Positions 5,837-63,378 of a stretch of 64,000 nt of DNA are shown in pieces. Source of the stretch: Candidatus Woesebacteria bacterium. GTDB taxonomy: Bacteria > Patescibacteriota > Microgenomatia > UBA1400 > MFAQ01. Both the position numbers and the translations under genes were made by a program. Location of the stretch: assembly GCA_035389185.1 (NCBI GenBank), contig DAOORK010000001.1, positions 257,006 to 321,005 of the forward strand, in the 5' to 3' direction. The notes under the pieces are model-generated. The model saw only the letters and a program-made list of their open reading frames with translations, ran no database searches and was not told the origin of the DNA. Within the stretch, counting starts at the first letter, position 1. The number at the start of each line of letters is the position of its first letter.

Positions 5837-5863
5837 ATTTAGTCTATTTTACCAGTGTTAGAG

Positions 5864-7540: not shown

Positions 7541-7543
7541 TGA

Positions 7544-9172: not shown

Positions 9173-9192
9173 AATTCATATTGGCAGGCTTC

Positions 9193-9232: not shown

Positions 9233-9236
9233 TTTC

Positions 9237-9265: not shown

Positions 9266-9281
9266 GGGGTGTGTAAAGGGG

Positions 9282-9318
9282 TGTGAAAAAGCAAAAGCCC
9301 TCCTTTCGAAGGGCTTGA
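9282..9318 (-). terminator. Rho-independent terminator of the lipoprotein gene: stem AAGCCC/GGGCTT (9295-9300 / 9311-9316) with a 10-nt loop containing the palindrome CCTTCGAAGG, followed on the minus strand by TTGCTTTTT.
   Basis: GC stem plus U-tract 20 nt downstream of the stop codon of the 9337..10179 gene, read on the minus strand. Confidence 0.5.
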
Positions 9319-9336
9319 AAATAATTTACAAATTAC

Positions 9337-10179: not shown

Positions 10180-10200
10180 TATAACGCAACACTTTTGGGG

Positions 10201-10743: not shown

Positions 10744-10746
10744 TGT

Positions 10747-38288: not shown

Positions 38289-38294
38289 TGTATA

Positions 38295-39701: not shown

Positions 39702-39717
39702 CAGTTAAATTGTATAC

Positions 39718-41550: not shown

Positions 41551-41636
41551 ATCAATTTATGATGATTATTAAGTATAATGGAAAACTGTATGAATATACG
41601 CACTGAGGATGTTTTTATAATAAACAAATATCTAGC

Positions 41637-42368: not shown

Positions 42369-42407
42369 CAATATTTTCTTGAACTTGGATGTAGACGGCT
42401 GTAATGT

Positions 42408-45684: not shown

Positions 45685-45701
45685 GAATGGCCTTCGGTTA
45701 A

Positions 45702-48538: not shown

Positions 48539-48544
48539 TTTTTC

Positions 48545-50167: not shown

Positions 50168-51684
50168 AAATCATCTTCTAAAATATCATTAATCAGATAT
50201 ACCCCTTTATAAAAGGCGCCGCATATTGAATCATAATTATCCCACGTGTATGAAGTAAGTGATAACCAAATTATTGCGTGTATTATTTTGATTTTTCTTA
50301 TATCTCTGTTAATTAGTTTAAAAAATTGTTTTTCTAGTTTATGCCAACCACTTGATGATATTTTTATAGAAATATTATTATCATCAATTGTTAACCTAAA
50401 ATTTTTTCTGTTGAACTGGTCGTAGTCTCCGATAATTGAATAATATAGTTTTGCCCAATCATAGTCTTCATCTCCAAATAATATTTCTTTCCCGAAGTAA
50501 CCTCTTGGATCAATAAAAACAATTCTTGAATCTGATGAAAAGATTATATTTGAGAACGTTATATCTCCATGAATAACCTTGTAATCGTTCGAATAGTAAG
50601 GTTTTATTAGATCTTCGACAATTTTGAAGTTTTTGTACACATTGATGCATTTTTTCCCGTTTATCATAATATAGTCCTGATCAATCAAAGGAATTAAACT
50701 GGCGATCTTTGTCATCCTTTCCTTAGTCTTTGAAAGAAATGCTATGTCATTATTTTGGTGATAATCTTGCTTTTTGGTTGGTTTAATTACATGTATTGTC
50801 CTTATTTGTTCAATAATTTTTTTCAAAATATTATTTTTTTCTCTTAAACTCATTCGCATCTCATAGAGAGGTTTCCCATTAATAAATTTCATTGTTAATG
50901 GGTCGTAGGATAGAATCCGAGGAAGAAAATCAATTTTGTATGATTCCAGCGATTGATACCATTTTTTTTCAAGTAATGCCAAATCCATCCCTTGTTTATT
51001 TACTGGAATTTTTTTAAGTATGCCCTTTTCTACTTCAATACGATTGAAAGCTCGGGAAACTAAACTAGCGTTACAAAATTTTGAGTATTTATGTAGCGTT
51101 CCGATTTCTTTTATACCTTCTGGATAAAACTGAACCATTGCAACTCTGTCATTTCTGAGAAATTTGCAAAACTCCGTTTCGTTAGGAATATTTGATAACG
51201 CTTTTTTGTCTTTAAAAACGAACAATCCGATTATTCCTCTTCTTTTACTCGGTTGCTCAACAGGTAAACCTCTTTGGAAACTCCATCGACATTTAAACTG
51301 ATTGGAAAGCCCAATGTAGTTCGTAGACGAAGATAGTTTATTTATAAAATTGGCATTTTCCAAATACAGATCACACCAAATTAGCAAAAAGGGGGTTTTT
51401 GATGGTATTTTCCTCAGACACTGTTTTATTCCACCGCCATCAAATTTGTAATGAGTTTTTACTATTTCATAATTATCTGTTGGAGAATAGATTGAAAGAT
51501 ATTTTTTAAGTAAGTCACTCTTATAATCGGAAATTATCAGAATTTTTGCTTTAGGAAATAATTTTATTGTCCTAATAATTAAGGGTTCGTTATTGATGGA
51601 AATAAGTGCTTTGGGTTTATTTGCTGTCAAATAGCCCATTCTATTACCCCTTCCCCCCGCTTGAATTATGACGTATTTAACCAT
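50164..51684 (-). CDS. Bifunctional fusion: N-terminal sugar/phospho-alcohol nucleotidyltransferase (LicC/RmlA-like) plus C-terminal APH/choline-kinase-fold kinase (LicA/AmgK-like)
   Basis: 506 aa. N-terminal VIIQAGGRGNRMGYLTANKPKALISINNEPLI (G-G-x-G-x-R plus KPKAL, very similar to the LicC N-terminus). C-terminal VIHGDITFSNIIF...VFIDPRGYFG...DEDYDWAKL (catalytic HGD..N loop and IDxE/DW motif of APH/ChoK-like kinases). Confidence 0.65.
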   Translation of the reverse strand: MVKYVIIQAGGRGNRMGYLTANKPKALISINNEPLIIRTIKLFPKAKILIISDYKSDLLKKYLSIYSPTDNYEIVKTHYKFDGGGIKQCLRKIPSKTPFLLIWCDLYLENANFINKLSSSTNYIGLSNQFKCRWSFQRGLPVEQPSKRRGIIGLFVFKDKKALSNIPNETEFCKFLRNDRVAMVQFYPEGIKEIGTLHKYSKFCNASLVSRAFNRIEVEKGILKKIPVNKQGMDLALLEKKWYQSLESYKIDFLPRILSYDPLTMKFINGKPLYEMRMSLREKNNILKKIIEQIRTIHVIKPTKKQDYHQNNDIAFLSKTKERMTKIASLIPLIDQDYIMINGKKCINVYKNFKIVEDLIKPYYSNDYKVIHGDITFSNIIFSSDSRIVFIDPRGYFGKEILFGDEDYDWAKLYYSIIGDYDQFNRKNFRLTIDDNNISIKISSSGWHKLEKQFFKLINRDIRKIKIIHAIIWLSLTSYTWDNYDSICGAFYKGVYLINDILEDDL

Positions 51685-52369
51685 TCTTTAATTTTAGAAA
51701 TAAGGTTGACCAACCTTTATTTTTGTTAAAGTCTTTGTCGTTTTTGCTCATAAAATATCCTTCTAGCATCGGTTTTGATCTAAATACCCATTTAGAAATA
51801 TATAAATTTAACATACTAAATTGTTCCCACCAGCTACCTCTTGTTATTATCTTTTTAATTATAAAATTTGTTTCGTTTACAATCTTTTTAAGCTTCTTTG
51901 AAGAATAATGGCGGTGGCCTACTAACCACCAGGCTGGGTCGAGAACACAAGACCAAAATGACTGATTTGGTGTTGAAATATATAAAACTCCTCCTTTTTT
52001 TAGGACTCTTGAAGCTTCTTTGAAAAAAATGTTTTCTGTCCCCTTTGGTATGTGCTCGAGTACTTCCCAACACACTACAGTATCGAATGATTTCATTGTA
52101 AAGGGAATTTTGATGGCGCTTCCAATTTTAAAACCGATTTCTCTGCATTTTATCGTTTTTGCTGTTTTTAAATCGTTTTTGCTAATCTCCATACCAATAA
52201 TTTTTTTTACACCTTGATTTTTTGCCCACAATTCGAACCATCCGAAGCCGCATCCAACATTAAGTACTTTTTTATTTTTGATATCTTTCTTTTCAACAAA
52301 CTTATTCACGGTAAATAACGTTCGACCAGACAACTTCATGTATGGTGTTTGATTAAGCAAGTTTTTCAT
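51677..52369 (-). CDS. Class I SAM-dependent methyltransferase
   Basis: 230 aa; VLNVGCGFGWF motif I, VVCWEVLEHI, GGVLYISTPN. Confidence 0.6.
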   Translation of the reverse strand: MKNLLNQTPYMKLSGRTLFTVNKFVEKKDIKNKKVLNVGCGFGWFELWAKNQGVKKIIGMEISKNDLKTAKTIKCREIGFKIGSAIKIPFTMKSFDTVVCWEVLEHIPKGTENIFFKEASRVLKKGGVLYISTPNQSFWSCVLDPAWWLVGHRHYSSKKLKKIVNETNFIIKKIITRGSWWEQFSMLNLYISKWVFRSKPMLEGYFMSKNDKDFNKNKGWSTLFLKLKNG

Positions 52370-53217
52370 TTATTTTGAAAAATATAGGAAAGCCAGGTAA
52401 TAAATCTAATGCTATACATACTTATTGCTAGTATCGGATGAGCAACAAGTTTTTTCCATTTATCGTTCTCGACGTATACGACTACTGACCTATACCAAAG
52501 ACCTAACTGTTTCGTGACATCCTTATCATCCTTTCCCCATTTGTTCACATAGCTATCAAAGGTTTTAACATATTTTTTCTTTTTTCTTAAAAAGGTTTTT
52601 AAATCGAGTAACTCTTCGTGGTGATATATGCCTTTTTGGGTGATTGAAATTTTATTTGTTTGTTTTTTAATTGTTTTTGTTAAATCCCAGTCGTCAGCAC
52701 CAAACATAATATTTTTTTCGTCATAACCACCAATTTTTTTAAACAAAGTTCGGTTTACTACTCTTATGGCATCAACAGGGGTTTTATTATAAAAGCTTCG
52801 TTCAAAGTTTCTAACTTTTCCAAAATATCCGTTTCCCTTGATGGTTTCAGGAATATAAAGGGCGTCAAACCTGTTCATTTTTTGGGATATTTCCTGAAAG
52901 AGTCCTTTATCGAAAGTCATGTCGGCATCGGGAAAGAAAATTATTTCTCCTGTGGATTTTTTTAAACCCTGATTTACTTGGGCGCCACGAAAATTTTTCG
53001 TTTTATTGCCGATTACAACATCGAACACATTTTTTGTATATTTGAGAGCAATCTTTTTTGTGTCGTCATTGGAATGATTATCTACGACAATAATTTCTAT
53101 ATTTTTTCGAGGAAATTTTTGCTCTTTAATTGACTGTAGGCAATTCCCAATATGATTTTCTTCGTTTTTTGTAGCTACAATTGCGGTAATCTTCATAAGA
53201 GTTATCTTGAATGCCAA
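52366..53217 (-). CDS. Glycosyltransferase family 2
   Basis: 283 aa; ITAIVATKNEENHI...IIVVDNHSNDDT...FFPDADM. Confidence 0.65.
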   Translation of the reverse strand: MAFKITLMKITAIVATKNEENHIGNCLQSIKEQKFPRKNIEIIVVDNHSNDDTKKIALKYTKNVFDVVIGNKTKNFRGAQVNQGLKKSTGEIIFFPDADMTFDKGLFQEISQKMNRFDALYIPETIKGNGYFGKVRNFERSFYNKTPVDAIRVVNRTLFKKIGGYDEKNIMFGADDWDLTKTIKKQTNKISITQKGIYHHEELLDLKTFLRKKKKYVKTFDSYVNKWGKDDKDVTKQLGLWYRSVVVYVENDKWKKLVAHPILAISMYSIRFITWLSYIFQNK

Positions 53218-54179
53218 TTCCAGGCGTCCTTGATGATATCATCGATATTATATTTACTTTTCCATTTTAAAATTTTGTTAGCCTTCGATGGATCGGCCAC
53301 CAGTATTGGTGGATCACCGACCCTTTGCTTCTCTTTGATTACAGCGAATTTTGATTGATATTTTTTTACTTTATCAACGATCTCCTTAACTGATGTTCCG
53401 ATTCCAGTCCCAATATTAAAGAAATTTGTGCCTGTTTTTTTGTTCATGTACTGAAGAGCTTTCAGATGAGCATCCGCTAAATCGAGGACGTGAACATAAT
53501 CACGAATACAAGTACCGTCGGGAGTAGAATAATTATTTCCAAAGATACTAATTGATTTTCTTTTCTTTTGGGCAGCACTTATTACCAATGGAATAAGATG
53601 AGTTTCAGGATTGTGTGATTCTCCAATTTCAAAACCTGCCCCAGCTGCATTAAAATATCTCAGTCTAACGGAATTCACTTTGTATATTTGCCAATACCAT
53701 TCGAGGATTTTCTCGAACATCAGTTTACTTTCCCCATACGGATTGATGGGAGAATTTGGCTGATCTTCTGTTATAGGAGTAGTCTTTGGTGTGCCATATA
53801 CAGCGCAACTTGAAGAAAATACAATTTTTTTACATCCGTTTGCTACCATTGCTTCGAGTAGATTAACACCTCCTTGAATATTATTTTCAAAATACTTTCC
53901 AGGATTTTCCATTGATTCGCCGACAAAAGCATATGCTGCGAAATGAATTACCGAATCAATCTTGTGTTCCTTGAATATTTTAGCGACTGTTTTTTTGTTT
54001 AACAAATCTCCTTTTACAAAAACTACTCCTTTGGGTAAATATGACTTATGTCCATAAATCAAATTATCAACTACAACAATATTTTTTGGGTCAATTCCCT
54101 GATTAACAAAGTAATGAACTGTGTGAGAACCTATGTAGCCAGCTCCTCCTGTTATTAATATTTTTTTATCGTTATTCAT
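53202..54179 (-). CDS. UDP-hexose 4-epimerase (GalE-family SDR), second copy
   Basis: 325 aa; ILITGGAGYIGSH, YGESK, LRYFNAAGA; paralogue of 29021..30004 but in the low-GC block. Confidence 0.75.
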   Translation of the reverse strand: MNNDKKILITGGAGYIGSHTVHYFVNQGIDPKNIVVVDNLIYGHKSYLPKGVVFVKGDLLNKKTVAKIFKEHKIDSVIHFAAYAFVGESMENPGKYFENNIQGGVNLLEAMVANGCKKIVFSSSCAVYGTPKTTPITEDQPNSPINPYGESKLMFEKILEWYWQIYKVNSVRLRYFNAAGAGFEIGESHNPETHLIPLVISAAQKKRKSISIFGNNYSTPDGTCIRDYVHVLDLADAHLKALQYMNKKTGTNFFNIGTGIGTSVKEIVDKVKKYQSKFAVIKEKQRVGDPPILVADPSKANKILKWKSKYNIDDIIKDAWNWHSR

Positions 54180-54192: not shown

Positions 54193-55650
54193 TTAGGAAA
54201 AATCTGTAAGATGCCCGATAACCTTACCGGCGGCTCGGAAAAGGAATTTGACATCATCGATATTTCTAATTGAGGTGATCTTTTTGATAATGAATTTTGG
54301 AGTAATAAATGAACGATAGAGGTCTTGGGTAAGTTCTTTTACTTGGGTACTGGTGAGAGGACATTTCATCACTTGTTCTCTTTGATCAAAACGGTCGTAA
54401 TCAGTAAAGTTTAAAAGATCATTTTCCAAGCAGAATTTATAAAGAGGAGTACCGGGATAAGGAATAAGAATGGTGGCTTGAAGAGTGTCCACAAACCCAT
54501 TTTTAAATAACTTTTTGGACAGATTGACTGTTCTCTGGGCATCTTTGTAGGTTTCCCAAGGATAACCGATCATTGTCGTGATATGGGGCTCAAGACCAGC
54601 CTCTTTGCACATCTTTAGACCAGGAGCAATCTCTTTTACTTTTAGATTTTTATTGATCTTGTCGAGAGTCTTCTGGTTTGCTGATTCCAATCCAAAGAGA
54701 ATAAATCTGAATCCGGCCTTTTTCATTAGCTGCCAAGTTTCCGGTTTACGAATACCGGTGATGCGCATATTACAGCTCATGACAATTTTTTTGTTGTACC
54801 CGCGATCGATCATTCCCTGACAAAAATCAATTAGCCACTTGCCTATTGGGAGACTGCCCGAGTCTTCCATAATCTCTTTGACGCCGAGATCGATTAACTG
54901 GCCAACTTCATCTAAGGCTAGTTTGGCCGATCGAGTACGGAATTTGTTTCCGGGAAAAAGTGTTGTCCAAGAACAAAAAGCACATTTACCCCACCAACAG
55001 TCCCGACCAGACATCATATAAGCACCTGGAGTGTGTTTGAAGTTGCCATTTTTGTAAGCGTAGTTTTGCCATTTTGTGAGTCGACGATCGATCATTGGAA
55101 GTTCATCTAGGGCGTGAGAGTGCGGGTCGTAGACTCCGGTATTTTTTATTGTTTTTCCGTCTTTGTACCAGACACCGCCAGAAAAGTCTCCTTTGCGATT
55201 TAGCTTGGCCACGATTGAAGCAAGAATAAAATCGTAATCTCCCCCAGCAATGACATAATCAACCTTTGAATTCTCAAATGTCTCTTGGGGAAGAGCGGTT
55301 ACGTGATCCCCCATTAATACAATTTTTGATTTGGGAAGTTTCTTCTTTAGCTCGTTAACAATCAGCCAATGGCGTTTTACTACCGGAGTTTTTGTTTCAA
55401 AAACGATCAGATCAGGATGTCTTTTGACAGTTCTCTTGAACCACTGGACATAGGTCAGTTCTTCGGCAATGCCATCGTCCCAGTAGACTTTGTAGCCTTG
55501 CGACTTGAGTAAAGTAGCTGCATATGCGGGAATAACCGGATAGATGAAGGTTGGGCTGGTAAACCATTGGAACTGTCTGTTTTGGGATAGAAGAGGTGTT
55601 CCCTTTTCAGACTCAAGTGGTGGGTAACTAATAGAAATTGTTTTTATCAT
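54193..55650 (-). CDS. B12-binding-domain radical SAM protein (class B-like) with an unusual CX4CX2C cluster motif
   Basis: 485 aa. N-terminal Rossmann-like cobalamin-binding-type region (KIVLMGDHVTALP, DYVIAGGDYDF), then GRDCWWGKCAFCSW Cys triad, then TIM-barrel-like region (RFILFGLESANQKTLDKINK). The canonical motif would be CX3CX2C. Confidence 0.55.
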   Translation of the reverse strand: MIKTISISYPPLESEKGTPLLSQNRQFQWFTSPTFIYPVIPAYAATLLKSQGYKVYWDDGIAEELTYVQWFKRTVKRHPDLIVFETKTPVVKRHWLIVNELKKKLPKSKIVLMGDHVTALPQETFENSKVDYVIAGGDYDFILASIVAKLNRKGDFSGGVWYKDGKTIKNTGVYDPHSHALDELPMIDRRLTKWQNYAYKNGNFKHTPGAYMMSGRDCWWGKCAFCSWTTLFPGNKFRTRSAKLALDEVGQLIDLGVKEIMEDSGSLPIGKWLIDFCQGMIDRGYNKKIVMSCNMRITGIRKPETWQLMKKAGFRFILFGLESANQKTLDKINKNLKVKEIAPGLKMCKEAGLEPHITTMIGYPWETYKDAQRTVNLSKKLFKNGFVDTLQATILIPYPGTPLYKFCLENDLLNFTDYDRFDQREQVMKCPLTSTQVKELTQDLYRSFITPKFIIKKITSIRNIDDVKFLFRAAGKVIGHLTDFS

Positions 55651-56651
55651 CTCTTTAGTTTAGCAGTAAAGAAAAATCCTTCCATAAATTTCAGACCATA
55701 CCAAGAGTGAGTGAGAAAAATAGCAGGAATTGAGACTAGACCTTGAAAAATACTCTGAGAGCGCTTGGATATCCAAACAGAGTTGACAACAAGAGACAAT
55801 ATATAAAGACAAAGAAAAAATAGACCTGTTTGGCGAATCAAACTAAAAAGTGACGAGTTGACGAAAAAGGATAATAGAAGAAGGACCAAACCAATATCCA
55901 TCAACGAGGGTAGCATATATAACGGACGAAGCGATGTTTGGGGAAGCACTTTAGCAAAGAAACCTCGGTGTAGTCCAAAATTGCCGTTTTGCCTTAGGTG
56001 ACCCCGCCACAATAGCCGACGGTGATGATAGACAATCGTTTTGGGATCATAGATTATTCTCTTGCCGGTTTTGTTGACTAGGTCAAGACAGAGTTTGGTA
56101 TCTTCACCAGGCCAGTAATTTGAGTCGAAACCACCTACGGATAAAAAATCTGTTCGACGGATCGACAAATTCATGGAGGGAAAATCGTCCACGTATTTTT
56201 TTGCACCGGCTAAGAATCGGTAGTAGTAGAACCCTGATCCAAAAGGAGACGCTGAGGCCCACCCTGAGGCCTCTTCTTGCCAAGAAACACCTGGAGGTGT
56301 GACTCCTGGTCCTCCGACCGCGACAATGTCTTTTTTGGAGAAATGGCGAACAATACTTGCTAGCCAGTTTGGGTTTGGATAGGCATCATCGTCAATGAAG
56401 GCGATGATGTCACCTTTGGCGACCTCGGCTCCATGATCACGTTTGTTAGCAGGCGGAATATACTTCCCCTGGTAATCAATAATTTTTAGGTGGGGATATT
56501 TGATTTTTTTGGGGTGATCGGTTTCTAGAATTATTTCAAAATGTTTGTAGGTTTGTTTTTGAAGGGCATCCAAACACTCGATCAGATATGGATTGTTTTT
56601 CTTGTAATCAATTACAACAACAGACACAAGGAGATCCTTTTGCTTATTCAT
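55647..56651 (-). CDS. Glycosyltransferase family 2 with C-terminal transmembrane segments
   Basis: 334 aa; VSVVVIDYKKNNPYL..., DDDAYPNPNW (DXD), about 3 C-terminal TM helices. Confidence 0.6.
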   Translation of the reverse strand: MNKQKDLLVSVVVIDYKKNNPYLIECLDALQKQTYKHFEIILETDHPKKIKYPHLKIIDYQGKYIPPANKRDHGAEVAKGDIIAFIDDDAYPNPNWLASIVRHFSKKDIVAVGGPGVTPPGVSWQEEASGWASASPFGSGFYYYRFLAGAKKYVDDFPSMNLSIRRTDFLSVGGFDSNYWPGEDTKLCLDLVNKTGKRIIYDPKTIVYHHRRLLWRGHLRQNGNFGLHRGFFAKVLPQTSLRPLYMLPSLMDIGLVLLLLSFFVNSSLFSLIRQTGLFFLCLYILSLVVNSVWISKRSQSIFQGLVSIPAIFLTHSWYGLKFMEGFFFTAKLKR

Positions 56652-57441
56652 AGCGAAGTTTTAGATTGGGGTCGCCCTGCCAAAGGTCGTGATGATTATC
56701 GTCGTAGTAACGAAGAATATAGGTGCGGTAAATAATGGCTAAGTAGTCGATGGCAAAGTTTTGTACCGATTGAAGACCGATATTGCTTTGGAAGTTATAG
56801 TTTATCTCGACCGGAGACTCGTAGATTTTTTTGAAACCTAGACGATTGGCCACGGCAAGCATTTCCAGATCAAAAGCCCAACGCTTAACAAGTAATCGAG
56901 GAAGTACTTTGACCAAAACCTCTCTTCTGAAAACTTTGAGGCCCGTTTGGGTATCAGAGACATTGAGACCAAAAAAGAAGCGGGTGGCTTTTTGGACAAG
57001 AAAACTTAAGATTTTTCTTTTGAAAGGATAAACAACTTTGCTTGCATGGTGTCGTTTGGAACCGATAATAATATCGGCATCGTACCACTTCATGTGTTCA
57101 AGAGCCAAACCAATTCCTTTTGCATTGAGATCAGAACCGGCATCGATAAAAGCGATTATTCCTCCTTTGGCTCTGGCCATACCAAAACGAATGGCATAAC
57201 CCTTGCCTTTGTTTTCCGGATAAAAAAAGGTGTGCGTGTTTTTGTTTTTTATTTTTTTGGCTAATTCAAAAGTGTGATCTGATTTGTTTTTTCGGCCATC
57301 GACAACACAGATAATTTCATAAGGTCGGTTTAGTTCAGAGAGATATTGATTTAAGGTGGATAAATCACGAAAAATTGTTTTGCAGTTGTAAGCTGGAACA
57401 ATGACAGAGAGTAGATTGGGGTTGGCGGACAACTTGGTCAT
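56644..57441 (-). CDS. GT2 polyprenol-phosphate sugar synthase-like (DPM1/GtrB-like), second copy
   Basis: 265 aa; LSVIVPAYNCKT...ICVVDGRKNKSD...GKGYAIRFG...FIDAGSDL; no TM; resembles 31102..31794. Confidence 0.55.
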   Translation of the reverse strand: MTKLSANPNLLSVIVPAYNCKTIFRDLSTLNQYLSELNRPYEIICVVDGRKNKSDHTFELAKKIKNKNTHTFFYPENKGKGYAIRFGMARAKGGIIAFIDAGSDLNAKGIGLALEHMKWYDADIIIGSKRHHASKVVYPFKRKILSFLVQKATRFFFGLNVSDTQTGLKVFRREVLVKVLPRLLVKRWAFDLEMLAVANRLGFKKIYESPVEINYNFQSNIGLQSVQNFAIDYLAIIYRTYILRYYDDNHHDLWQGDPNLKLRYE

Positions 57442-57453: not shown

Positions 57454-58731
57454 TTATATACGTTTGGGAGTAAATAATCTCTTCGAAAATAAATAAATCA
57501 TGAGTGAAACAAAAAGAGTCAGTTGTACAAAAAAGTTTGCCTGAACTGCGGCTGAAAAAGAAGTCCTAAAAACAACGATCAATAATGGTTGAATAATAGT
57601 TGAAATTAAAAGAAATATATTGGCCTGGGGACGACCAATGGCCATGAGATAACTGATAATAAATTGACTAAAGGCCAAAAAGGCCATAGAAAAAGCGAAG
57701 TATGAAAGTAGGGGTGCGGCTTCGAGGTAGGCTGTACCGGAAAGTATACGGATAATTAATGTGGGGAAAAGACTAAACACACCGGCACCAATAACTCCGA
57801 ACAACAAAATGACCGCTCCGAGTTTGAGAAAAATTGAACTGGTATCGGTTTTTTGGGCGTGTCGATGGGCGGCTAGCGGAAGAACCAAGGCACCAAGGGG
57901 TGTAAGCCCGTAGAGAATCATTCTGCCCAGAATGGAGAGTGAAGAATATAAACCGGAGGTATGTGAGTCAAAAAATGCTCTAACTAAAAGAACGTCTGTC
58001 GAGATTAACGAGGCCGTGCCCAAGGCATAGATAAAGCTATACCCCGTAAAACCGGCGAGATTAAATTTTATTTTCCTTTTGACTGTGATCTGGGGTAGAA
58101 CACTGCGTCGAATAGAGAAAAAGAGAATTACTGTCGTAACCGCTCCCCCAAGGAGCTGACCAAGAACGGCTCCGGTGGCCCCAAAACCCATCTTAATAAA
58201 GATAATGGCAATAAGAATGGTGATAAGGACTCCGGAAAATCCAACTATGGTTTGATAAACAAATTTTTGGAAAGCAATGATGTATGAATTAACAATTGTT
58301 TGGAAAAGGGTAATAAACATACTAATCCCCAGGATAAGGAAAGCCATGGAGTTTGCCTTAAATATTTCCGCTAATGGACCAGAAAAGACCACCAACAAAA
58401 GACCAAGAACTAAGGTAATCGGACTGATGATTTTCAAAAGATAGTAGAAAAACTGGTTGATGGCGATACTATCCCCTTTTCCTTTAAACTCAGAGATAAA
58501 TTTGGTGACAACATTGGCGATTGTGCCGGTAGGAATACCCAAAATATAGATCAGACTTAAGTAGGAGAGAAACTCACCATATTCTGCCGGAGCCAACAGT
58601 CGAAGAAGAATTAAATGAAAGAGGTAACGAGAAAAACTAAGTATGAAGTTGCCAAAATAATAGAAGGCACTGGAACGTGCTGTGGGGGTGGAAAGAGCAT
58701 GAAGAATTCGCTTCATGAGTAAGTTTAGCAT
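57454..58731 (-). CDS. Wzx-like polysaccharide flippase (MOP/PST family), second copy. Start placed at ATG 58731 (MLNLLMKRIL) to avoid the overlap implied by the longer ORF-track call 57454..58944.
   Basis: About 425 aa, 12-14 TM; PST-like N-terminus YYFGNFILSFSRYLFHLILLRLLAPAEYGEF. Confidence 0.6.
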   Translation of the reverse strand: MLNLLMKRILHALSTPTARSSAFYYFGNFILSFSRYLFHLILLRLLAPAEYGEFLSYLSLIYILGIPTGTIANVVTKFISEFKGKGDSIAINQFFYYLLKIISPITLVLGLLLVVFSGPLAEIFKANSMAFLILGISMFITLFQTIVNSYIIAFQKFVYQTIVGFSGVLITILIAIIFIKMGFGATGAVLGQLLGGAVTTVILFFSIRRSVLPQITVKRKIKFNLAGFTGYSFIYALGTASLISTDVLLVRAFFDSHTSGLYSSLSILGRMILYGLTPLGALVLPLAAHRHAQKTDTSSIFLKLGAVILLFGVIGAGVFSLFPTLIIRILSGTAYLEAAPLLSYFAFSMAFLAFSQFIISYLMAIGRPQANIFLLISTIIQPLLIVVFRTSFSAAVQANFFVQLTLFVSLMIYLFSKRLFTPKRI

Positions 58732-58736
58732 GGAGG

Positions 58737-59855
58737 CTAAGCGACAAAATAGCCCCGAGTGAATAAGGAGATAGCGAAGATAGAAAAAATAATCGTCACC
58801 AAAAAATAGAGATAGCGAAGATATGGATGAGTTTTGTCTAGAGTAGAGGCTAGAAAACCAAACATGGGGAATAATACGAGAGCAATTTTTGGCAGACCAG
58901 CAAAGGTTCCTGTTAGAGTAGGTAACAAAAATGATAATAAACAATATAACCAGTAAGACCGTCTGATCTTTTTAAAGGAAAAAATAAGGAAATATATGAG
59001 TAACAAGCCAGAAAATAGTTCGAGCAAAACAGTAAAGAATAGTGGATCTGTATGATCCATGTGTAGGACCATAGTAAAATAGCGATAGAGAATTTGATGA
59101 AGAAGAATGAGCTTTTTCTCTACCAAAGACGGCAGTAAGGTAACAGCATTTCCGCTATGTAAGGAAAGAAATCTGATATAGGCTAGTAATCCAATAGGAG
59201 GAAGAGAAAGCCAAACAAGAGAAGGTTTCAAAATTTGTTTTATTTTGGTTCCGTTTGTCTGAAAATACTCAATAATGAGCGCCGGCCAAAGAAAAATGCC
59301 GACAAGACAGGTGGCAGAAGCGATCATGGCAAAGATGCCAGACAGAAAAAAATTATTTTTACGAACGAAGAAAAAAGTGAGGAGACTTAGTAATAAGAGT
59401 ATCGAGTGAGGATATATTGAACCAAAAATAAACGAGGTAGGAAAAAGAAAAATTAACAGTAAGGCGAATCGAGATATCTTTTCTTTGTAATCAAGAAGAA
59501 AGAGCTTGTAGAGAAGAAGGAGAGATAGAAAAAAAGCTAGATTACTGATAATGAGCCCGGTAATAAGAGGGTTGTGAACAAAGTCATTTAGGTTTCTAAC
59601 CAACCAAGGATATACCGGAAAATAGGCAGTTGTTAAACTCGTTTCTCCCACCGGAAAGTAATTTGTGGTTGCTTGATCGAGATAATGAAAACCATCGAAA
59701 TTCGCCCACATCTGCAAGAGGTTGTTACCAAGATGGTCGCTAAGCTTAGTAAAGCCCGGTCGAATTGAAAGAAAAAACATTGCAGGAATAGCAATAACCG
59801 ACACAAGTAGTCTCCAGGTAAAAAACCTTATGACAAAATCCTTAATTTTGAGCAT
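58737..59855 (-). CDS. Polytopic membrane protein, GT-C-like (mannosyltransferase-type first loop). Start revised to ATG 59855 (MLKIKDF).
   Basis: About 373 aa, about 10 TM; first extracytoplasmic loop WANFDGFHYLDQATTNYFP resembles D..HY motifs of GT-C mannosyltransferases (PIG-M/PimE-like). Confidence 0.35.
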   Translation of the reverse strand: MLKIKDFVIRFFTWRLLVSVIAIPAMFFLSIRPGFTKLSDHLGNNLLQMWANFDGFHYLDQATTNYFPVGETSLTTAYFPVYPWLVRNLNDFVHNPLITGLIISNLAFFLSLLLLYKLFLLDYKEKISRFALLLIFLFPTSFIFGSIYPHSILLLLSLLTFFFVRKNNFFLSGIFAMIASATCLVGIFLWPALIIEYFQTNGTKIKQILKPSLVWLSLPPIGLLAYIRFLSLHSGNAVTLLPSLVEKKLILLHQILYRYFTMVLHMDHTDPLFFTVLLELFSGLLLIYFLIFSFKKIRRSYWLYCLLSFLLPTLTGTFAGLPKIALVLFPMFGFLASTLDKTHPYLRYLYFLVTIIFSIFAISLFTRGYFVA

Positions 59856-60870
59856 CTTCTTTGACCTTTTGGTAGACAATTGAAGTGGCCTTGGCCGTTT
59901 TTGTCCAAGAAAAAGAGGTCGATTTTTCTTTGGCTTGAGTAATTTGCTCACTCTTGGCTTTTGGTGATAATGACAAAGCTTTTTTAATTGCTTTTTCGAT
60001 GGAAGACAGTTTCCGAGGATTAAAAACTATGGCTCCCTCGTGATAGATCTCAGGCAGACTGCTGACTTTGGAACTGGCAATCAAACAACCGGCAGTCATG
60101 GCCTCTAGCAAGGGCAAACCAAAACCTTCATAAAGTGATGGTTGAACGTATAAACTGGCTAAACGATATAAAGCATTGAGATCTTCTGTCGGTACAAATC
60201 CGGGAAGAATAAGGTGTTTGTATACTTTGAGACGTACCATGTCAATTAATTCGGGGTGAACAGGCTCTTTGACTTCTTGGAGCATTCCTTTGCCGACAAT
60301 AACCAAGGGGATACCCAGACGATCGGTGACTTCTGCGAGAGAAGGAAGATTTTTGTTGGGATTAGGACCTCCGGCCACGGTAAGAATAAATTTTTTGGGT
60401 AAGTGGTATTTATTTCTTACTTCTTCCAGTTTTTCAGGAGAAATATTTTTTTGGAATTCGGAATCGATAGCTAACGGGATGACGGTGATTTTTTCGGGAG
60501 GAAGCCGAAAAAGTTTGATTAAATCATTTTTGGAATTTTCCGAGTCGGTGATGATAGCTGACACCGACTGAAGAGCTAACCACTGAAGGGTTAAGTTAAA
60601 TATTCCTTTGGCACCTTTTGGATAACGGCTGGAAAGCACGAGAGGGGTAAGGTCGTGGACAGTGACAATGGTTGGGTTTTTCTTTTTGATAGGAAGCGTA
60701 TGGTAAAAAAGATCAAAAAAAGGATAGTGAATGATATCTGGATTCTTATCGGTGAGGATAATACTGGGAGATTTTTCCAGAGCTTTTGCCAGATTATCGG
60801 CATAAAAACCAACTCCCCTACCTTGGGAATGGGTACCGCTATCTAAAAAAACTTTGATTTTATTGGCCAT
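59842..60870 (-). CDS. Glycosyltransferase family 4
   Basis: 342 aa; EGFGLPLLEAMTAGCLIASS GT4 motif. Confidence 0.7.
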   Translation of the reverse strand: MANKIKVFLDSGTHSQGRGVGFYADNLAKALEKSPSIILTDKNPDIIHYPFFDLFYHTLPIKKKNPTIVTVHDLTPLVLSSRYPKGAKGIFNLTLQWLALQSVSAIITDSENSKNDLIKLFRLPPEKITVIPLAIDSEFQKNISPEKLEEVRNKYHLPKKFILTVAGGPNPNKNLPSLAEVTDRLGIPLVIVGKGMLQEVKEPVHPELIDMVRLKVYKHLILPGFVPTEDLNALYRLASLYVQPSLYEGFGLPLLEAMTAGCLIASSKVSSLPEIYHEGAIVFNPRKLSSIEKAIKKALSLSPKAKSEQITQAKEKSTSFSWTKTAKATSIVYQKVKEDAQN

Positions 60871-61738
60871 AAGAATCTTTTTTGTATATCTCCCAAAGTT
60901 TCATATAGGAAAAGGCATGATGAAGCCCTGAGTAAAGCGAAAAGACGAAACCGGGGAAACCGTCCAGAAAACCACGTCGACGAAGATAGAGATTTAAAAA
61001 TGTTCCTGCAGGCTTAAAAAAGAGATACTTTAGCGTATTAAAGAGAGTTATTTTAATACCTTCCTGTTTATAAAACCCAGCTTGTAAACTAGAGTAACGA
61101 TTCTCGCGAAGCAAATAACGACTAAAGTCCGGAGTGGCGTAGTGATCAAGATCTGTTTTTAACCAACCGACAACGCCGTCGACCTTCATTTGTTCATGAA
61201 CATCTTTGGCCGGAAGAGTGGCTTTGCCTCTTTGGAAAAGACGAATAACAGGGTCTGGGTACTGACCACCATTCGTGAGATATCTAGTGAGGAAGAAGTT
61301 TTTTCGGGGAAGCCAGTAAGCTGAAGCAGGCTTGGAAAGCTCTTTTGGCTCCGGAAAAATTTTGATTATTTTATTGACGCTTCGGCGAAGAGGTGAGAGC
61401 CAGGAATCGAAACCGAAGTACTCCCCTTCCAAAATACCAATGATTTCCTTCTTCATGGCCGGGGTAACTCTTTCATCGGCATCGAGCTGGAGAATCCAAG
61501 TGGAACTGGCTTTGTTAATGGCTTTATTTTTTGTGACATGGAAAATCGGTTCGTGTGGCTCAACATAAACCTTGGCTCCTAATTTTTCGGCAATCTCTTT
61601 GGTTTTGTCAGTGCTCTGCTCATCAACGATAATCATCTCGTCAACCCATTCTTTGACAGACAAAAGGCATTCTTTTATATTTACTTCTTCATTGAGAGTG
61701 GAAAGTACAACCGAGATGGTTTGACGTTTATTTTTCAT
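60860..61738 (-). CDS. Glycosyltransferase family 2
   Basis: 292 aa; ISVVLSTLNEEVNI...MIIVDEQSTDKT...LQLDADE. Confidence 0.65.
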   Translation of the reverse strand: MKNKRQTISVVLSTLNEEVNIKECLLSVKEWVDEMIIVDEQSTDKTKEIAEKLGAKVYVEPHEPIFHVTKNKAINKASSTWILQLDADERVTPAMKKEIIGILEGEYFGFDSWLSPLRRSVNKIIKIFPEPKELSKPASAYWLPRKNFFLTRYLTNGGQYPDPVIRLFQRGKATLPAKDVHEQMKVDGVVGWLKTDLDHYATPDFSRYLLRENRYSSLQAGFYKQEGIKITLFNTLKYLFFKPAGTFLNLYLRRRGFLDGFPGFVFSLYSGLHHAFSYMKLWEIYKKDSYGQ

Positions 61739-63378
61739 TTGGTGGAGAGAAACTTGTACATTGGTTTTCCAACTGGATCATAGATAGTAAAGATGACTGC
61801 TTTGTCGTTAACTGGTTCATCAGCGGCAATTATAAGGGTATTGGGCATTTTTTTATCAACATTATCGTAGTTTATCTTGTGGAACTCATATTTGCCCATA
61901 TTTCTCACAGTTGAAAAACCAAAGTTGTCTCTGGGGGTCATCACCATTTCTTTTTGTAAAGTTTCCGGTGAATACTGAAGGAAGAAGGCCATCAGAATAT
62001 ATGGCTGATCGTAACGATCGGAAATCACAATATGATCATATTCGTCATAATGTGCCTTGGTATATGCGGCGATCTGATCAAAACCGTACTGCCAGGCAAA
62101 GGGTAACTCCTTAGGATAGTGGACATAGTACATGTGGAGATATCGGCCCAAGGAACACAAACCAAAAATAGAAATTAATACAACAAAGATCGGTTTAATA
62201 AGTTTTGGCCGAAGTTTTCCGAGGAAATCGAGAGCGAGAGATAGTCCTGCTGCAGTGATAATACTAAGGGGAATAACCATATTTTGAGCTCGAAGAGCAT
62301 GAGGAGACTGAAAGGTCATGGAGGCGGCAAGGGGTGCGACTAAAAACCAGAACAAGACAAATCTTTTCTCGGGAGAGTCCATCTTGAGAAACCAAAAAAT
62401 CCCCAGAAAAAATAGTGGAGCGAGGAAAAGAAAGGATTGCCCCATCTCCGGAACTTTGCTTCTGGCAATTTCATCTCCAGCCACAAACAAGAATCTAGGA
62501 GAAAAATGAGACAAATAGTTTTTGACAAAGCGCAGACTGTAAGAAAGGTATTGATTGTGAATTACCCTGACATACATACCAGACTCTTGAGGATGACCAC
62601 GACGAAGCTCAAGTGCACGCCAGTAAGGACCCGTGTCTGACAGTAGTGAAACACCAGAAAAACGAGCTTGACCTTCTTTGGAGAGAAGCTGGATGGCAAT
62701 TGGTGTCGTTATGATAATACCCACAAGAAGCGCCAAAAGAATAGTGACTCGCTTTTTTCCGGTAAAGCCGGAAAATAGTGGCCTTCGATAGAAGACAACA
62801 AGATACAAGGCCAAAAGAGGAGATACAATCCTGGCGGAGTGATAAGTGTAAAGACTGAGAGCGAGAGATATGACAAACAAAAAGTAATATTTGGGTTTTT
62901 CTAATCCTTTGAAGAATCCCCAGATACCGAGAAGAATAAAGAAGGTGGCCACGTTGACTTCCCATCCACCTCGAGAAAACTGTAAATGCCAGGGAGAAGC
63001 GGACAAAATCAAGGCAGAAAGATAAGGCAAGTATTTATTGTTGGTGAAGAGTTTTCTTACCAAAAGAAACACCAATAGAACCGAACCGAGACCGAGGATT
63101 GCTGAAGGCAAACGTACCGACCAGATATTTAAACCGAAGAGCTTTACAAAAGGAAGGACCAGATAGAAGTATACCGGCAGTTTGTAATCATCAAAAGATC
63201 TAAAAACGACCGGCCAAGAGACTCCATGTTCATCCTTACCTGTTTGGACCAAAGACCAGGCGTTGTAGCCAATGGCGGCTTCGTCTGCATTGAGACCGGC
63301 GGGATATTTATCCAAAGCAACAACTCTCAAAACGGCGGCAAGTAGAAGAATGATAGCCAGAGGCAAGTATTTTTTCAT
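61735..63378 (-). CDS. GT-C superfamily membrane glycosyltransferase (PMT_2/ArnT-like, GT39/GT83-type)
   Basis: 547 aa; first loop ALDKYPAGLNADEAAIGYNAWSL (classic ArnT/PMT_2 DE motif), about 12 TM, C-terminal soluble domain. Confidence 0.55.
   Translation of the reverse strand: MKKYLPLAIILLLAAVLRVVALDKYPAGLNADEAAIGYNAWSLVQTGKDEHGVSWPVVFRSFDDYKLPVYFYLVLPFVKLFGLNIWSVRLPSAILGLGSVLLVFLLVRKLFTNNKYLPYLSALILSASPWHLQFSRGGWEVNVATFFILLGIWGFFKGLEKPKYYFLFVISLALSLYTYHSARIVSPLLALYLVVFYRRPLFSGFTGKKRVTILLALLVGIIITTPIAIQLLSKEGQARFSGVSLLSDTGPYWRALELRRGHPQESGMYVRVIHNQYLSYSLRFVKNYLSHFSPRFLFVAGDEIARSKVPEMGQSFLFLAPLFFLGIFWFLKMDSPEKRFVLFWFLVAPLAASMTFQSPHALRAQNMVIPLSIITAAGLSLALDFLGKLRPKLIKPIFVVLISIFGLCSLGRYLHMYYVHYPKELPFAWQYGFDQIAAYTKAHYDEYDHIVISDRYDQPYILMAFFLQYSPETLQKEMVMTPRDNFGFSTVRNMGKYEFHKINYDNVDKKMPNTLIIAADEPVNDKAVIFTIYDPVGKPMYKFLSTK

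What the first reader, a model, noticed from the sequence alone, without database searches (positions are those of the whole stretch)
54193..55650. B12-binding radical SAM enzyme with non-canonical CX4CX2C motif inside a glycan locus
Seen in sequence: the Cys triad is DCWWGKCAFCSW, so four residues separate the first two cysteines instead of the canonical three (CX3CX2C). Upstream lies a Rossmann-like region resembling cobalamin-binding domains. Class B radical SAM enzymes in sugar pathways perform C-methylation or epimerisation at unactivated carbons, so this may modify a sugar of the glycan. Nothing in the sequence alone identifies the substrate.
Basis: partly seen in the sequence, partly recalled or inferred. 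Interest (0 to 1): 0.6.

Follow-up and report, generated by a model that had tools for sequence, protein, structure and literature searches.

The report
Glycan-locus B12-type radical SAM enzyme
This gene encodes a real cobalamin-type radical SAM enzyme whose unusual CX4CX2C iron-sulfur motif is a known variant; it belongs to a very conserved, uncharacterised family found in bacteria and archaea that is almost always paired with a membrane glycosyltransferase, and so probably performs radical chemistry on one sugar of a cell-surface glycan.

Summary
ORF 54193-55650 (-) encodes a 485-aa protein with RDCWWGKCAFCSW (C218/C223/C226, CX4CX2C). It has a Radical_SAM domain, an N-terminal Rossmann domain, and a predicted fold that best matches class B (cobalamin-dependent) radical SAM enzymes, with OxsB first.

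The motif is not novel. OxsB (solved structure), GenD1, queuine lyase and Elp3 have the same spacing, and all 120 similarity-selected homologues carry it.

The context was the more useful result. The family occurs in at least 560 species genomes: CPR/Patescibacteria, cultivated Desulfovibrionaceae, Methanocaldococcus indicus, ANME-2, DPANN and others. It keeps 53-85% identity and is annotated only generically. In 71 of 74 loci a membrane GT2 lies directly upstream on the same strand, with an ATGA overlap in this window. A flippase-like protein, a polyprenyl-phosphate GT2 and epimerases often accompany the pair. Distant relatives are fused as GT2+B12+rSAM.

The nearest named family is HpnJ, the putative sugar ring-contracting enzyme of hopanoid biosynthesis, but the score is 157 bits against a 578-bit cut-off, so it is not HpnJ.

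Best reading: a two-enzyme unit that installs one radically modified sugar into a lipid-linked surface glycan. The chemistry is unresolved between HpnJ-like rearrangement and C-methylation. It is a new variant of a known kind, of moderate interest.

The parts
54193..55650 (-). Class B (B12-type) radical SAM protein of 485 aa; the finding itself
   Evidence: ORF. Pfam Radical_SAM plus sub-threshold B12-binding. AF2 model with pLDDT 82.6. Foldseek top hits are OxsB, QCMT/MgmA, AprD4, TsrM, CysS and TokK.
55201..55650 (-). N-terminal Rossmann-like, cobalamin-binding-type domain (aa 1-150)
   Evidence: PF02310 match over aa 42-136 at 26.2 bits, below the cut-off. The model alternates beta strands and helices in this region. 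The profile alignment to the OxsB Cbl domain begins at aa 63.
55561..55584 (-). Family signature loop QNRQFQWF (aa 23-30), following beta1
   Evidence: Invariant in A1. Present in 119 of 120 homologues. Its function is unknown, and the model has low confidence at residues 20-26.
55384..55398 (-). ETKTP loop after beta3 (aa 85-89); K87 is the predicted residue beneath the corrin
   Evidence: E[ST]KTP is present in 120 of 120 homologues. OxsB N186, its lower-axial residue, aligns to K87 in the profile alignment. HpnJ-proximal relatives have ETSTP instead. The assignment is an inference from a sequence alignment.
54967..55005 (-). Cluster-binding motif RDCWWGKCAFCSW (aa 216-228); C218, C223 and C226 give CX4CX2C
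   Evidence: Invariant in the family. Aligned with OxsB C-DYSR-C-TF-C.
54520..55005 (-). Radical SAM core (aa 216-377), including the EDSGS (GGE-like), GLES and MIGYPWE motifs
   Evidence: PF04055 match. These motifs are conserved across relatives.
55647..56651 (-). Obligate partner: a membrane GT2 ('GT2m', 334 aa) with a catalytic domain and C-terminal transmembrane helices; its stop overlaps the rSAM start (ATGA)
   Evidence: Pfam GT2 and Glyco_trans_2_3. NCBIfam best matches are MftF and AglG. A homologue lies upstream on the same strand in 71 of 74 loci. The model has pLDDT 88 and its best PDB match is PcManGT, then hyaluronan and cellulose synthases. Junction sequence.
56644..57441 (-). 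GT2 of 265 aa resembling polyprenyl-phosphate sugar synthases (PpgS/ArnC/AglJ-like); overlaps GT2m by 8 nt
   Evidence: Homologues lie upstream in 21 loci. In another 21 loci a GtrB-type GT2 with two C-terminal TM helices lies upstream in the same region.
57454..58944 (-). Polytopic membrane protein, flippase-like (Wzx/Polysacc_synt type); the true start is probably downstream of the listed TTG
   Evidence: No Pfam hit itself. It is 23-29% identical to proteins upstream of the pair in about 45 loci, and those proteins carry Polysacc_synt domains.
53202..54179 (-). UDP-glucose 4-epimerase GalE, 13 nt downstream of the rSAM
   Evidence: TIGR01179 at 408.6 bits, above the 262.3-bit cut-off. Members of the epimerase family occur in 37 of 84 loci.
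52366..53217 (-). GT2 of 283 aa, frequently found downstream of the rSAM
   Evidence: Pfam. Homologues are present in 31 loci.
59842..63378 (-). GT4 (342 aa), GT2 (292 aa) and a GT-C/PMT_2 transferase (547 aa) upstream in the same operon-like array
   Evidence: Pfam. The same PMT_2, GT2, GT4, GT2_265, GT2m, rSAM order occurs in the two Shapirobacteria loci L058 and L061 and in L086, whose record is labelled Gammaproteobacteria.

Best explanation
The gene encodes a class B (cobalamin-type) radical SAM enzyme. It works as a fixed two-enzyme unit with the membrane-embedded GT2 encoded directly upstream. Together they put one radically modified sugar into a polyprenyl-phosphate-linked (lipid-linked) cell-surface glycan, which is then flipped and transferred outside the cell.

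Proposed mechanism:
- C218, C223 and C226 hold a [4Fe-4S] cluster on a loop one residue longer than usual.
- The reduced cluster cleaves SAM to the 5'-deoxyadenosyl radical.
- That radical abstracts a hydrogen from an unactivated carbon of a hexose that GT2m has attached to, or is about to attach to, the lipid carrier.
- The N-terminal Rossmann domain holds a base-off cobalamin that controls the fate of the substrate radical.

For the outcome I commit, with modest confidence, to an HpnJ/OxsB-type rearrangement without methyl transfer, such as contraction of the pyranose ring to a carbocyclic or otherwise rearranged sugar. C-methylation is a close second.

Shown: the domains, the fold, the invariance of the motif, the conserved gene pairing, and the kind of locus. 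Inferred: cluster and cobalamin binding, the lipid-linked substrate, and the reaction type. My probabilities are about 0.8 for 'class B rSAM acting with GT2m on a glycan sugar' and about 0.35-0.4 for the non-methylating rearrangement.
For: - Architecture and fold: (top PDB match OxsB at E=1.5e-18, then QCMT, AprD4, TsrM, CysS, TokK).
- Motif: invariant in 120 of 120 homologues, and aligned with OxsB's structurally validated CX4CX2C.
- Functional coupling to GT2m: it lies upstream on the same strand in 71 of 74 loci spanning bacteria and archaea, usually within 60 bp or overlapping. An unbiased clustering of neighbours ranks it first, at 67 of 84 loci. The window has an ATGA overlap. Natural fusions GT2+B12+rSAM (P0265) and GT2+B12+rSAM+GT4 (P0245) exist among distant relatives.
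- Lipid-linked glycan setting: GT2m has a minimal cellulose-synthase-like membrane GT2 fold, with PcManGT as best match. Recurrent partners are a Wzx-like flippase, a GtrB/PpgS-like polyprenyl-phosphate GT2, a GT-C/PMT_2 transferase, GalE and UDP-glucose dehydrogenase.
- Rearrangement over methylation: the nearest named families are the non-methylases HpnJ (156.6 bits, full length) and BchE (102 bits), against 55-79 bits for methylase families. A continuum of relatives leads towards HpnJ, with P0181 at 470 bits. HpnJ likewise follows a GT2 (HpnI) and acts on a lipid-linked hexosamine. The residue predicted beneath the cobalt is an invariant Lys, which is polar like those of the two enzymes that do not perform radical methylation (TsrM R69, OxsB N186), whereas TokK and Mmp10 have hydrophobic residues there.
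Against: - No biochemical data exist for any member; all named members carry only generic names.
- HpnJ's own activity is inferred from genetics only, and identity to the HpnJ-like branch is only about 25-30%, a range where radical SAM function is poorly predicted.
- Most characterised class B enzymes are methyltransferases. MoeK5, a methylase in moenomycin biosynthesis, clusters near HpnJ in sequence networks.
- An invariant Trp two residues after Cys3 (W228) may correspond to the stacking Trp of the methylase TokK; that correspondence rests on my recollection of TokK numbering and was not tested.
- The K87 assignment rests on a weak profile alignment (E=6.9e-5).
- The Pfam B12 hit is below threshold, and AprD4 shows that this fold can work without cobalamin.
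- The gene pairing does not say whether the rSAM acts before GT2m, on a nucleotide sugar, or after it, on the lipid-linked sugar. The very high cross-domain conservation (53-60% between bacteria and archaea) would actually fit a universal soluble substrate.
- No HpnK-like deacetylase is part of the conserved module.
Confidence: 0.4

Rival explanations
1. [quoted passage not shown] The 5'-deoxyadenosyl radical abstracts a hydrogen from a sugar carbon, methylcobalamin donates a methyl radical, and a second SAM re-methylates Co(I). The result is a C-methyl branched sugar in the glycan.
For: Most characterised class B enzymes are methylases. GenK, GenD1 and MoeK5 C-methylate sugars, and GenD1 itself has CX4CX2C. 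The Arg two residues before Cys1 and the Trp two after Cys3 resemble Cys-loop residues that contact cobalamin in TokK (the positional equivalence is my inference). One distant relative, P0216, is fused to a SAM-methyltransferase domain.
Against: Methylase families score much lower than HpnJ and BchE: HpnR 55, PhpK 76 and QCMT 61 bits, against HpnJ 157 bits. The residue predicted beneath the cobalt is a polar Lys, not the hydrophobic residue seen in radical methylases. The locus already encodes several ordinary SAM methyltransferases, although those would perform O- or N-methylation and so do not argue either way.
Confidence: 0.3
2. It acts on a soluble nucleotide sugar, such as a UDP-hexose supplied by GalE, before glycosyl transfer. 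GT2m would then be the dedicated transferase for the unusual product. This differs from the main explanation in the substrate, and it is compatible with either chemistry.
For: Conservation across domains is extreme: 108 residues are at least 97% conserved over 75 diverse members, and bacterial and archaeal proteins share 53-60% identity although their lipid carriers differ. This fits a universal soluble substrate. GalE and UDP-glucose dehydrogenase are recurrent neighbours. The rSAM has no predicted membrane segment.
Against: The closest functional analogues, HpnJ, Cds and MoeK5, all act on a sugar already attached to a lipid. GT2m precedes the rSAM in gene order and in the fusion proteins. 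No class B enzyme known to me acts on a simple NDP-sugar; this last point rests on my own knowledge.
Confidence: 0.3
3. It is a cobalamin-independent radical SAM enzyme whose Rossmann domain is vestigial or binds substrate, as in AprD4. It would catalyse dehydration, epimerisation or oxidation of a sugar.
For: The Pfam B12 hit is below threshold. The canonical DxHxxG motif is absent and SxL is replaced by TKT (sequence). AprD4, a sugar 1,2-diol dehydratase, is among the top sequence and fold matches. From general knowledge, CPR bacteria usually cannot make cobalamin.
Against: The N-terminal domain is among the most conserved parts of the protein, which argues against a vestigial role. All solved class B enzymes bind cobalamin base-off and lack DxHxxG. 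Many homologues do pass the PF02310 threshold.
Confidence: 0.12
4. Its role lies outside glycan synthesis, for example modification of a lipid tail or a tetrapyrrole as with BchE or the ladderane enzymes, and the GT2 neighbourhood is incidental.
For: BchE and the ladderane-lipid rSAM are among the better NCBIfam matches.
Against: The GT2m pairing holds in 71 of 74 loci across very distant lineages. GT2-rSAM fusions exist. No lipid-tail or tetrapyrrole genes appear in the conserved neighbourhood.
Confidence: 0.04

Closest known systems
[quoted passage not shown]
   Same: It is the best-scoring named family, with a full-length alignment (aa 35-472 against model positions 31-458 of 472). It has the same two-domain architecture, follows a GT2 (HpnI) in its pathway, and acts on a lipid-anchored sugar. 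Intermediate relatives link the two groups.
   Different: The score is 156.6 bits against a 577.6-bit cut-off. HpnJ-proximal relatives have the canonical CX3CX2C and ETSTP, not CX4CX2C and ETKTP. The window contains no hopanoid genes, and most hosts (CPR, archaea) are not hopanoid producers. The partner GT2 gave no HpnI match, and no HpnK-type deacetylase is in the module.
OxsB (PDB 5UL2-5UL4), the cobalamin-dependent radical SAM enzyme of oxetanocin A biosynthesis (oxidative ring contraction)
   Same: It is the top structural match (E=1.5e-18, TM 0.69 on the query). It has the same CX4CX2C spacing, aligned residue for residue. It is a non-methylase with a polar environment beneath the cobalt.
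   Different: Identity is only 16%. OxsB is 744 aa long, with an extra N-terminal domain and a helix bundle. Its substrate is a deoxyadenosine phosphate, and it is not encoded beside a glycosyltransferase.
Sugar-modifying class B methylases GenK, GenD1 and MoeK5, and the hopanoid methylases HpnP and HpnR
   Same: They share the superfamily and architecture. GenD1 has CX4CX2C. MoeK5 is a Csp3 methylase of moenomycin biosynthesis that lies near HpnJ in sequence networks; that its substrate is a lipid-linked sugar is my own knowledge.
   Different: Sequence scores are much weaker (HpnR 55 bits against a 650-bit cut-off, KedN5 34 bits). Those enzymes belong to antibiotic or hopanoid pathways, not to a module conserved across domains of life.
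Calditol synthase Cds (Saci_1489), the radical SAM enzyme that converts the hexose head group of archaeal GDGT lipids into a cyclopentane polyol
   Same: The concept matches: radical SAM chemistry on a sugar already attached to a membrane lipid, after a glycosyltransferase step.
   Different: Cds homologues are reported mainly from acidophiles, whereas this family is widespread in anaerobes.
AprD4 (PDB 6FD2), the radical SAM 1,2-diol dehydratase of apramycin biosynthesis
   Same: It is among the best sequence and fold matches and acts on a sugar (paromamine).
   Different: The review sets it apart from the B12-dependent enzymes as 'unrelated', and it scores 34 bits against a 500-bit NCBIfam cut-off.

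Membership tests
Radical SAM superfamily | Three-Cys motif, canonically CX3CX2C, that ligates the SAM-binding [4Fe-4S] cluster | tested here: met
   C218, C223 and C226 form CX4CX2C. This is a documented variant, invariant in 120 of 120 homologues, and aligned to OxsB's cluster motif. Actual cluster binding was not tested.
Radical SAM superfamily | Significant match to PF04055 and a partial TIM-barrel fold | tested here: met
   55.8 bits against a 29.5-bit cut-off. Foldseek matches to many radical SAM structures.
   Model coordinates are not exposed, and the Cys loop has pLDDT below 50.
Class B (cobalamin-dependent) radical SAM enzymes | N-terminal Rossmann-type cobalamin-binding domain preceding the radical SAM core | tested here: met
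   The PF02310 match is below the cut-off for this sequence (26.2 against 32.1 bits) but is recorded for most homologues. The whole-protein fold matches OxsB, TsrM, TokK, CysS and QCMT. The profile aligns to the OxsB Cbl domain.
Class B (cobalamin-dependent) radical SAM enzymes | Binds cobalamin and requires it for activity | not testable with these tools
   This needs purified protein. AprD4 shares the fold but is set apart from the B12-dependent enzymes as 'unrelated' in the review.
HpnJ (TIGR03471 equivalog) | Score at or above the curated cut-off of 577.6 bits | tested here: not met
   156.6 bits.
HpnJ (TIGR03471 equivalog) | Located with hopanoid biosynthesis genes (shc, hpnH, hpnI, hpnK) | tested here: not met
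   None were found among the neighbours in the window or in the conserved neighbourhood of 84 loci.
BchE (TIGR02026) | Score at or above 481 bits | tested here: not met
   102.4 bits.
Class B sugar/hopanoid C-methylases (HpnR TIGR04367, KedN5 NF033712; GenK/Fom3 type) | Score at or above the family cut-off | tested here: not met
   HpnR 55.2 against 650 bits; KedN5 34 against 700 bits. No GenK or Fom3 model appeared among the hits.
Class B sugar/hopanoid C-methylases (HpnR TIGR04367, KedN5 NF033712; GenK/Fom3 type) | Hydrophobic residue beneath the cobalt, as in TokK W76 and Mmp10 L322 | tested here: inconclusive
   The profile alignment places the invariant K87 at the OxsB N186 position. The alignment is weak and there is no structural superposition.
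AprD4 family (NF033070) | Score at or above 500 bits | tested here: not met
   34.3 bits.

The most novel reading that the evidence does not exclude
The GT2m-rSAM pair makes a sugar derivative not yet recognised in prokaryotic envelopes. For example, it could make a carbocyclic (cyclitol or carbasugar) residue by HpnJ/Cds-type ring contraction on a polyprenyl-phosphate-linked hexose. The modification would be spread by horizontal transfer across CPR bacteria, DPANN and methanogenic archaea, sulfate reducers and many other anaerobes. That would take 'lipid-linked sugar ring contraction' from two niche lipid pathways (hopanoids and calditol-GDGTs) to a general feature of surface glycans, and it would give a tractable enzyme for working out HpnJ-type chemistry.
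Probability: 0.25. Interest if true: 0.75.

Novelty: new variant of a known kind. Interest (0 to 1): 0.5.

Why it matters
Class B radical SAM enzymes number more than 220,000 sequences (figure from the review read), and only a handful are characterised. This family is unusually well suited to study.
- It is very strongly conserved: 108 positions are at least 97% conserved across 75 diverse members.
- It occurs in cultivable organisms (Solidesulfovibrio, Fundidesulfovibrio, Methanocaldococcus indicus) as well as in CPR bacteria.
- A fixed partner enzyme points to its substrate.

Working out its reaction would reveal a widespread, unknown modification of prokaryotic surface glycans. It could also clarify the untested chemistry of HpnJ-like enzymes. 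For CPR bacteria, which have tiny genomes and depend on host contact, a strictly conserved and costly tailoring step, needing an Fe-S cluster and probably cobalamin, suggests the glycan matters for their lifestyle.

The CX4CX2C motif on its own is not important.

Tried and rejected
- **Auxiliary Fe-S cluster.** Four extra Cys looked invariant among close homologues. Across 75 diverse members only C277 and C293 hold, and canonical relatives share them. Rejected.
- **HpnI-type partner.** NCBIfam on GT2m returned MftF, AglG and EpsD-like matches and no HpnI. A literal HpnI/HpnJ system is rejected.
- **CPR-specific family.** Rejected. The genome scan found it in Desulfovibrionaceae, Methanocaldococcus, ANME-2, Micrarchaeia, Bathyarchaeia, Elusimicrobia, Chloroflexi and others.
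- **True HpnJ among relatives.** None of ten representatives reached the cut-off; the best was 470 bits.
- **Literature.** Searches combining CPR/Patescibacteria with radical SAM and B12 or glycosyltransferase found nothing on this family.
- **Names.** Cluster look-up gave only generic names.
- **Calditol synthase.** The comparison could not be made. The PNAS paper is not held, no sequence was available, and other papers do not state its domain type.
- **RNA features.** tRNA and Rfam scans of the window found nothing.
- **Fused GT2 domains.** The GT2 domains of P0265 and P0245 are only generically related to GT2m (22-26% identity), so that evidence is supportive but not specific.
Full report
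**Observation.** The ORF at 54193..55650 on the minus strand is intact, begins with ATG and encodes 485 residues. It contains GRDCWWGKCAFCSW, with cysteines at 218, 223 and 226. Pfam finds the Radical_SAM domain over residues 216-377 (55.8 bits, cut-off 29.5). It also finds a B12-binding match over residues 42-136, at 26.2 bits, which is below the 32.1-bit gathering score.

**Fold.** An AlphaFold2 model built on 20 homologues has mean pLDDT 82.6 and pTM 0.84. It shows an N-terminal alternating strand/helix domain followed by a partial barrel. Foldseek against the PDB ranks OxsB first (E=1.5e-18). Next come the glutamine C-methyltransferase QCMT/MgmA (9CCB), AprD4, TsrM, CysS and TokK, all matched over most of their length. 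MiaB and RimO follow, and ordinary radical SAM enzymes match only through the barrel. [quoted passage not shown] The Cys loop (219-221, 227-235) and residues 20-26 are modelled with low confidence.

**The motif is a known variant.** OxsB has a CX4CX2C motif in its crystal structure. GenD1 and Sis14 have it too, and RadicalSAM.org lists several spacing variants. A family profile aligns OxsB's C-DYSR-C-TF-C exactly onto C-WWGK-C-AF-C. Queuine lyase (CIWGKCSFC) and Elp3 (CPHGKCIFC) share the spacing, including the Gly-Lys before the second Cys. All 120 homologues retrieved by overall similarity have the CX4 spacing. In the wider clade that shares the N-terminal QNRQ signature, the Cys1-Cys2 loop is an indel hot spot: X3, X4, X7, X9 and X17 all occur. 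Relatives at about 30% identity have the canonical CPxxCxFC. The extra residue is therefore a lineage trait in a tolerant loop. It is not evidence of unusual cluster chemistry.

**The family.** More than 6,000 clusters at 90% identity match the protein, and the best 120 are 66-85% identical. A scan of one genome per species found at least 560 species with a relative. These are not only Patescibacteria. They include Fundidesulfovibrio agrisoli, Solidesulfovibrio alcoholivorans, Desulfovibrio sp. DV, Methanocaldococcus indicus (58% identity), ANME-2, Micrarchaeia, Bathyarchaeia, Elusimicrobia, Nitrospinota, Chloroflexi, Brocadiaceae and Actinomycetota. Across 75 diverse members, 108 positions are at least 97% conserved. 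At 50% clustering the family collapses to very few representatives. Every named member is called only 'B12-binding domain-containing radical SAM protein' or similar. Four literature searches found no description of the family.

**Genomic context.** In the window the gene lies in a long minus-strand array. In order of transcription it runs GT-C/PMT_2, GT2, GT4, an unknown protein, a polytopic membrane protein, GT2 (265 aa), membrane GT2 (334 aa, 'GT2m'), the rSAM, GalE, GT2 (283 aa), a SAM-methyltransferase, a nucleotidyltransferase, and a SIS+HAD protein. The GT2m stop and the rSAM start overlap (ATGA). GT2_265 and GT2m overlap by 8 nt.

I compared the window's neighbours with 86 related loci (83 after removing three duplicates). 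A GT2m homologue at 34-48% identity lies upstream on the same strand in 71 of the 74 loci that have enough upstream DNA, mostly within 60 bp or overlapping. This includes the archaeal loci. An unbiased clustering of all neighbouring ORFs gave these counts out of 84 loci:
- GT2m: 67
- Wzx/Polysacc_synt-like flippase: about 50
- Epimerase family: 37
- GT2_283: 31
- GT2_265: 21
- GtrB-type polyprenyl-phosphate GT2 with two C-terminal TM helices: 21
- UDP-glucose dehydrogenase: 11
- GT-C plus TPR protein: 10

Among distant relatives, P0265 is a GT2+B12+Radical_SAM fusion and P0245 is GT2+B12+Radical_SAM+GT4, in the same order as the gene pair. Their GT2 domains are only generically similar to GT2m.

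**The partner.** GT2m has a DxD-containing GT2 catalytic domain followed by three or four transmembrane helices. Its model (pLDDT 88) best matches PcManGT, the Pyrobaculum membrane mannosyltransferase; from my own knowledge this enzyme works in lipid-linked N-glycan assembly and has a minimal cellulose-synthase-like fold. Hyaluronan and cellulose synthases follow. Its best NCBIfam matches are MftF and the dolichyl-phosphate-glucose glucuronosyltransferase AglG. Taken with the flippase, the polyprenyl-phosphate GT2 and the GT-C enzyme, this indicates assembly of a lipid-linked glycan that is exported and transferred outside the cell.

**Relationship to named families.** The best NCBIfam match is HpnJ, at 156.6 bits over the full length but far below the 577.6-bit cut-off. 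BchE follows at 102 bits, and methylase families score 34-79 bits. Relatives with the canonical motif score progressively higher on the HpnJ model, up to 470 bits, though none passes. The family is thus a divergent branch of an HpnJ-like assemblage and is not HpnJ.

HpnJ is proposed, from genetics only, to contract the glucosamine ring of a hopanoid glycoside installed by the GT2 HpnI. Calditol synthase does comparable chemistry on a GDGT-linked hexose. OxsB, the top structural match, also catalyses a ring contraction. In the profile alignment, OxsB N186, the residue beneath the cobalt, corresponds to the invariant Lys of the ETKTP loop after strand 3, whereas HpnJ-proximal relatives have Ser there. 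The review notes polar residues at this position in the two enzymes that do not catalyse radical methylation (TsrM, OxsB) and hydrophobic ones in radical methylases. This mapping is a weak, alignment-based inference.

**Interpretation.** The well-supported claim, at about 0.8, is that this is a class B radical SAM enzyme that functions with GT2m to install one radically modified sugar in a lipid-linked surface glycan. The chemistry is unresolved. I favour an HpnJ/OxsB-type rearrangement without methyl transfer (about 0.35-0.4) over C-methylation (about 0.3), on three grounds: the nearest relatives, the parallel between GT2-then-rSAM and HpnI-then-HpnJ, and the polar residue under the corrin. 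Against this stand the strong prior that class B enzymes are methylases, the MoeK5 precedent, and an invariant Trp after Cys3 that may correspond to TokK's stacking Trp. Whether the enzyme acts before GT2m, on a nucleotide sugar, or after it, on the lipid-linked sugar, is also open. The very high cross-domain conservation fits a universal soluble substrate, while the analogues HpnJ, Cds and MoeK5 act on lipid-linked sugars. A cobalamin-independent, AprD4-like role remains possible (about 0.12). An auxiliary cluster is not indicated.

**Verdict.** The motif that attracted attention is ordinary for this enzyme class. The gene does, however, belong to a large, very conserved, cross-domain and uncharacterised subfamily with a near-obligate glycosyltransferase partner. 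That makes it a good target for finding new sugar radical chemistry. It is a new variant of a known kind, of moderate interest.

Noticed in passing
Homologues P0121, P0124, P0126, P0127, P0123, P0215, P0230 (not in the window); insertion sites correspond to window codons for C226 (54973-54975) and C218 (54997-54999): Several family members carry inteins, with LAGLIDADG homing-endonuclease domains or as a mini-intein. They sit exactly before a cluster-ligand cysteine: before Cys3 (...CWWGKCTF|C...VKN|CSWTT) in P0121, P0124, P0126 and P0127, and before Cys1 in P0123. These are two independent sites that use the Fe-S ligand as the +1 nucleophile. Pfam confirms Intein_splicing in P0230 and LAGLIDADG_3 in P0215 and P0230.
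   Followed up: partly
Relatives P0136, P0140, P0143, P0147, P0152 (37-40% identical, full length): These full-length paralogues have lost all three cluster cysteines (for example RDSDWGQSSLGS). Apart from P0143 and P0147 they keep the GDHV[TS]ALP motif of the N-terminal domain, and apart from P0152 they keep C277 and C293. They are probably non-catalytic or have been put to another use.
   Followed up: partly
Window 38000-54000 compared with the flanks: GC content falls to 0.31-0.34 across about 38-54 kb, a part of the glycan locus. Elsewhere it is 0.38-0.44 apart from 0.372 at 32-34 kb, and it returns to about 0.40 at the rSAM, GT2m and GT2_265 core. The conserved module therefore sits at the edge of what may be a variable or horizontally acquired glycan island.
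   Followed up: no
L001 19928-21337, L003 15448-16866, and also L023, L054, L056 and L061: Many related loci carry a second, distant radical SAM paralogue (24-30% identical, 469-472 aa, Pfam Radical_SAM only). In L001 and L003 it sits beside a large fused epimerase/FdtA/cupin protein. Glycan loci in these organisms can therefore contain two radical SAM tailoring enzymes. No such paralogue was found among the window ORFs scanned with Pfam.
   Followed up: no
Distant relatives P0265, P0245, P0216: Natural fusions occur: GT2+B12+rSAM (P0265), GT2+B12+rSAM+GT4 (P0245), and B12+rSAM+class I SAM-methyltransferase (P0216).
   Followed up: partly
15 related loci, for example L003 11537-12052 and L007 9528-10022; absent from the window: A membrane protein of about 164 aa lies close to the rSAM, directly downstream in several loci (for example L003, L010, L046). 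It has conserved Asp and His motifs (DxDHxxD...HGWEY) that resemble DUF457/YdjM-type membrane hydrolases. It has no Pfam hit on record.
   Followed up: no
Window 57454-58944 and 58737-59951: The listed 496-aa membrane ORF (TTG start) overlaps the preceding 404-aa ORF by about 200 nt. Its true start is probably further downstream, since homologues are about 420-440 aa long.
   Followed up: no
Window 48545-51684: Two unusually long sugar-activation proteins lie side by side. One is a 540-aa fusion of a KpsF/GutQ-like SIS isomerase domain with a HAD-IIB phosphatase. The other is a 506-aa protein with an N-terminal MobA-like nucleotidyltransferase domain and an uncharacterised C-terminal half. Together they may form a pathway to an unusual activated sugar.
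   Followed up: no
Window 55647-56651 (P0317) compared with 54193-55650: GT2m has a 100% identical database entry on a 905,580-bp JGI contig, which is probably the source genome. Its nearest named relative is a Microgenomates-group bacterium. The best database hit for the rSAM itself is only 85% identical, so its exact sequence seems to be missing from the protein collection.
   Followed up: no
Window 219-12651: The left end of the window encodes cell-division and cell-wall genes (FtsA at 219-1490, a PBP2-type transpeptidase at 5864-7540) and a DUF4012 protein (10747-12651). Much of the stretch from about 17 to 63 kb then encodes glycan assembly functions, including a second PMT-like GT-C, a Wzy_C ligase/polymerase and a Polysacc_synt flippase.
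   Followed up: no
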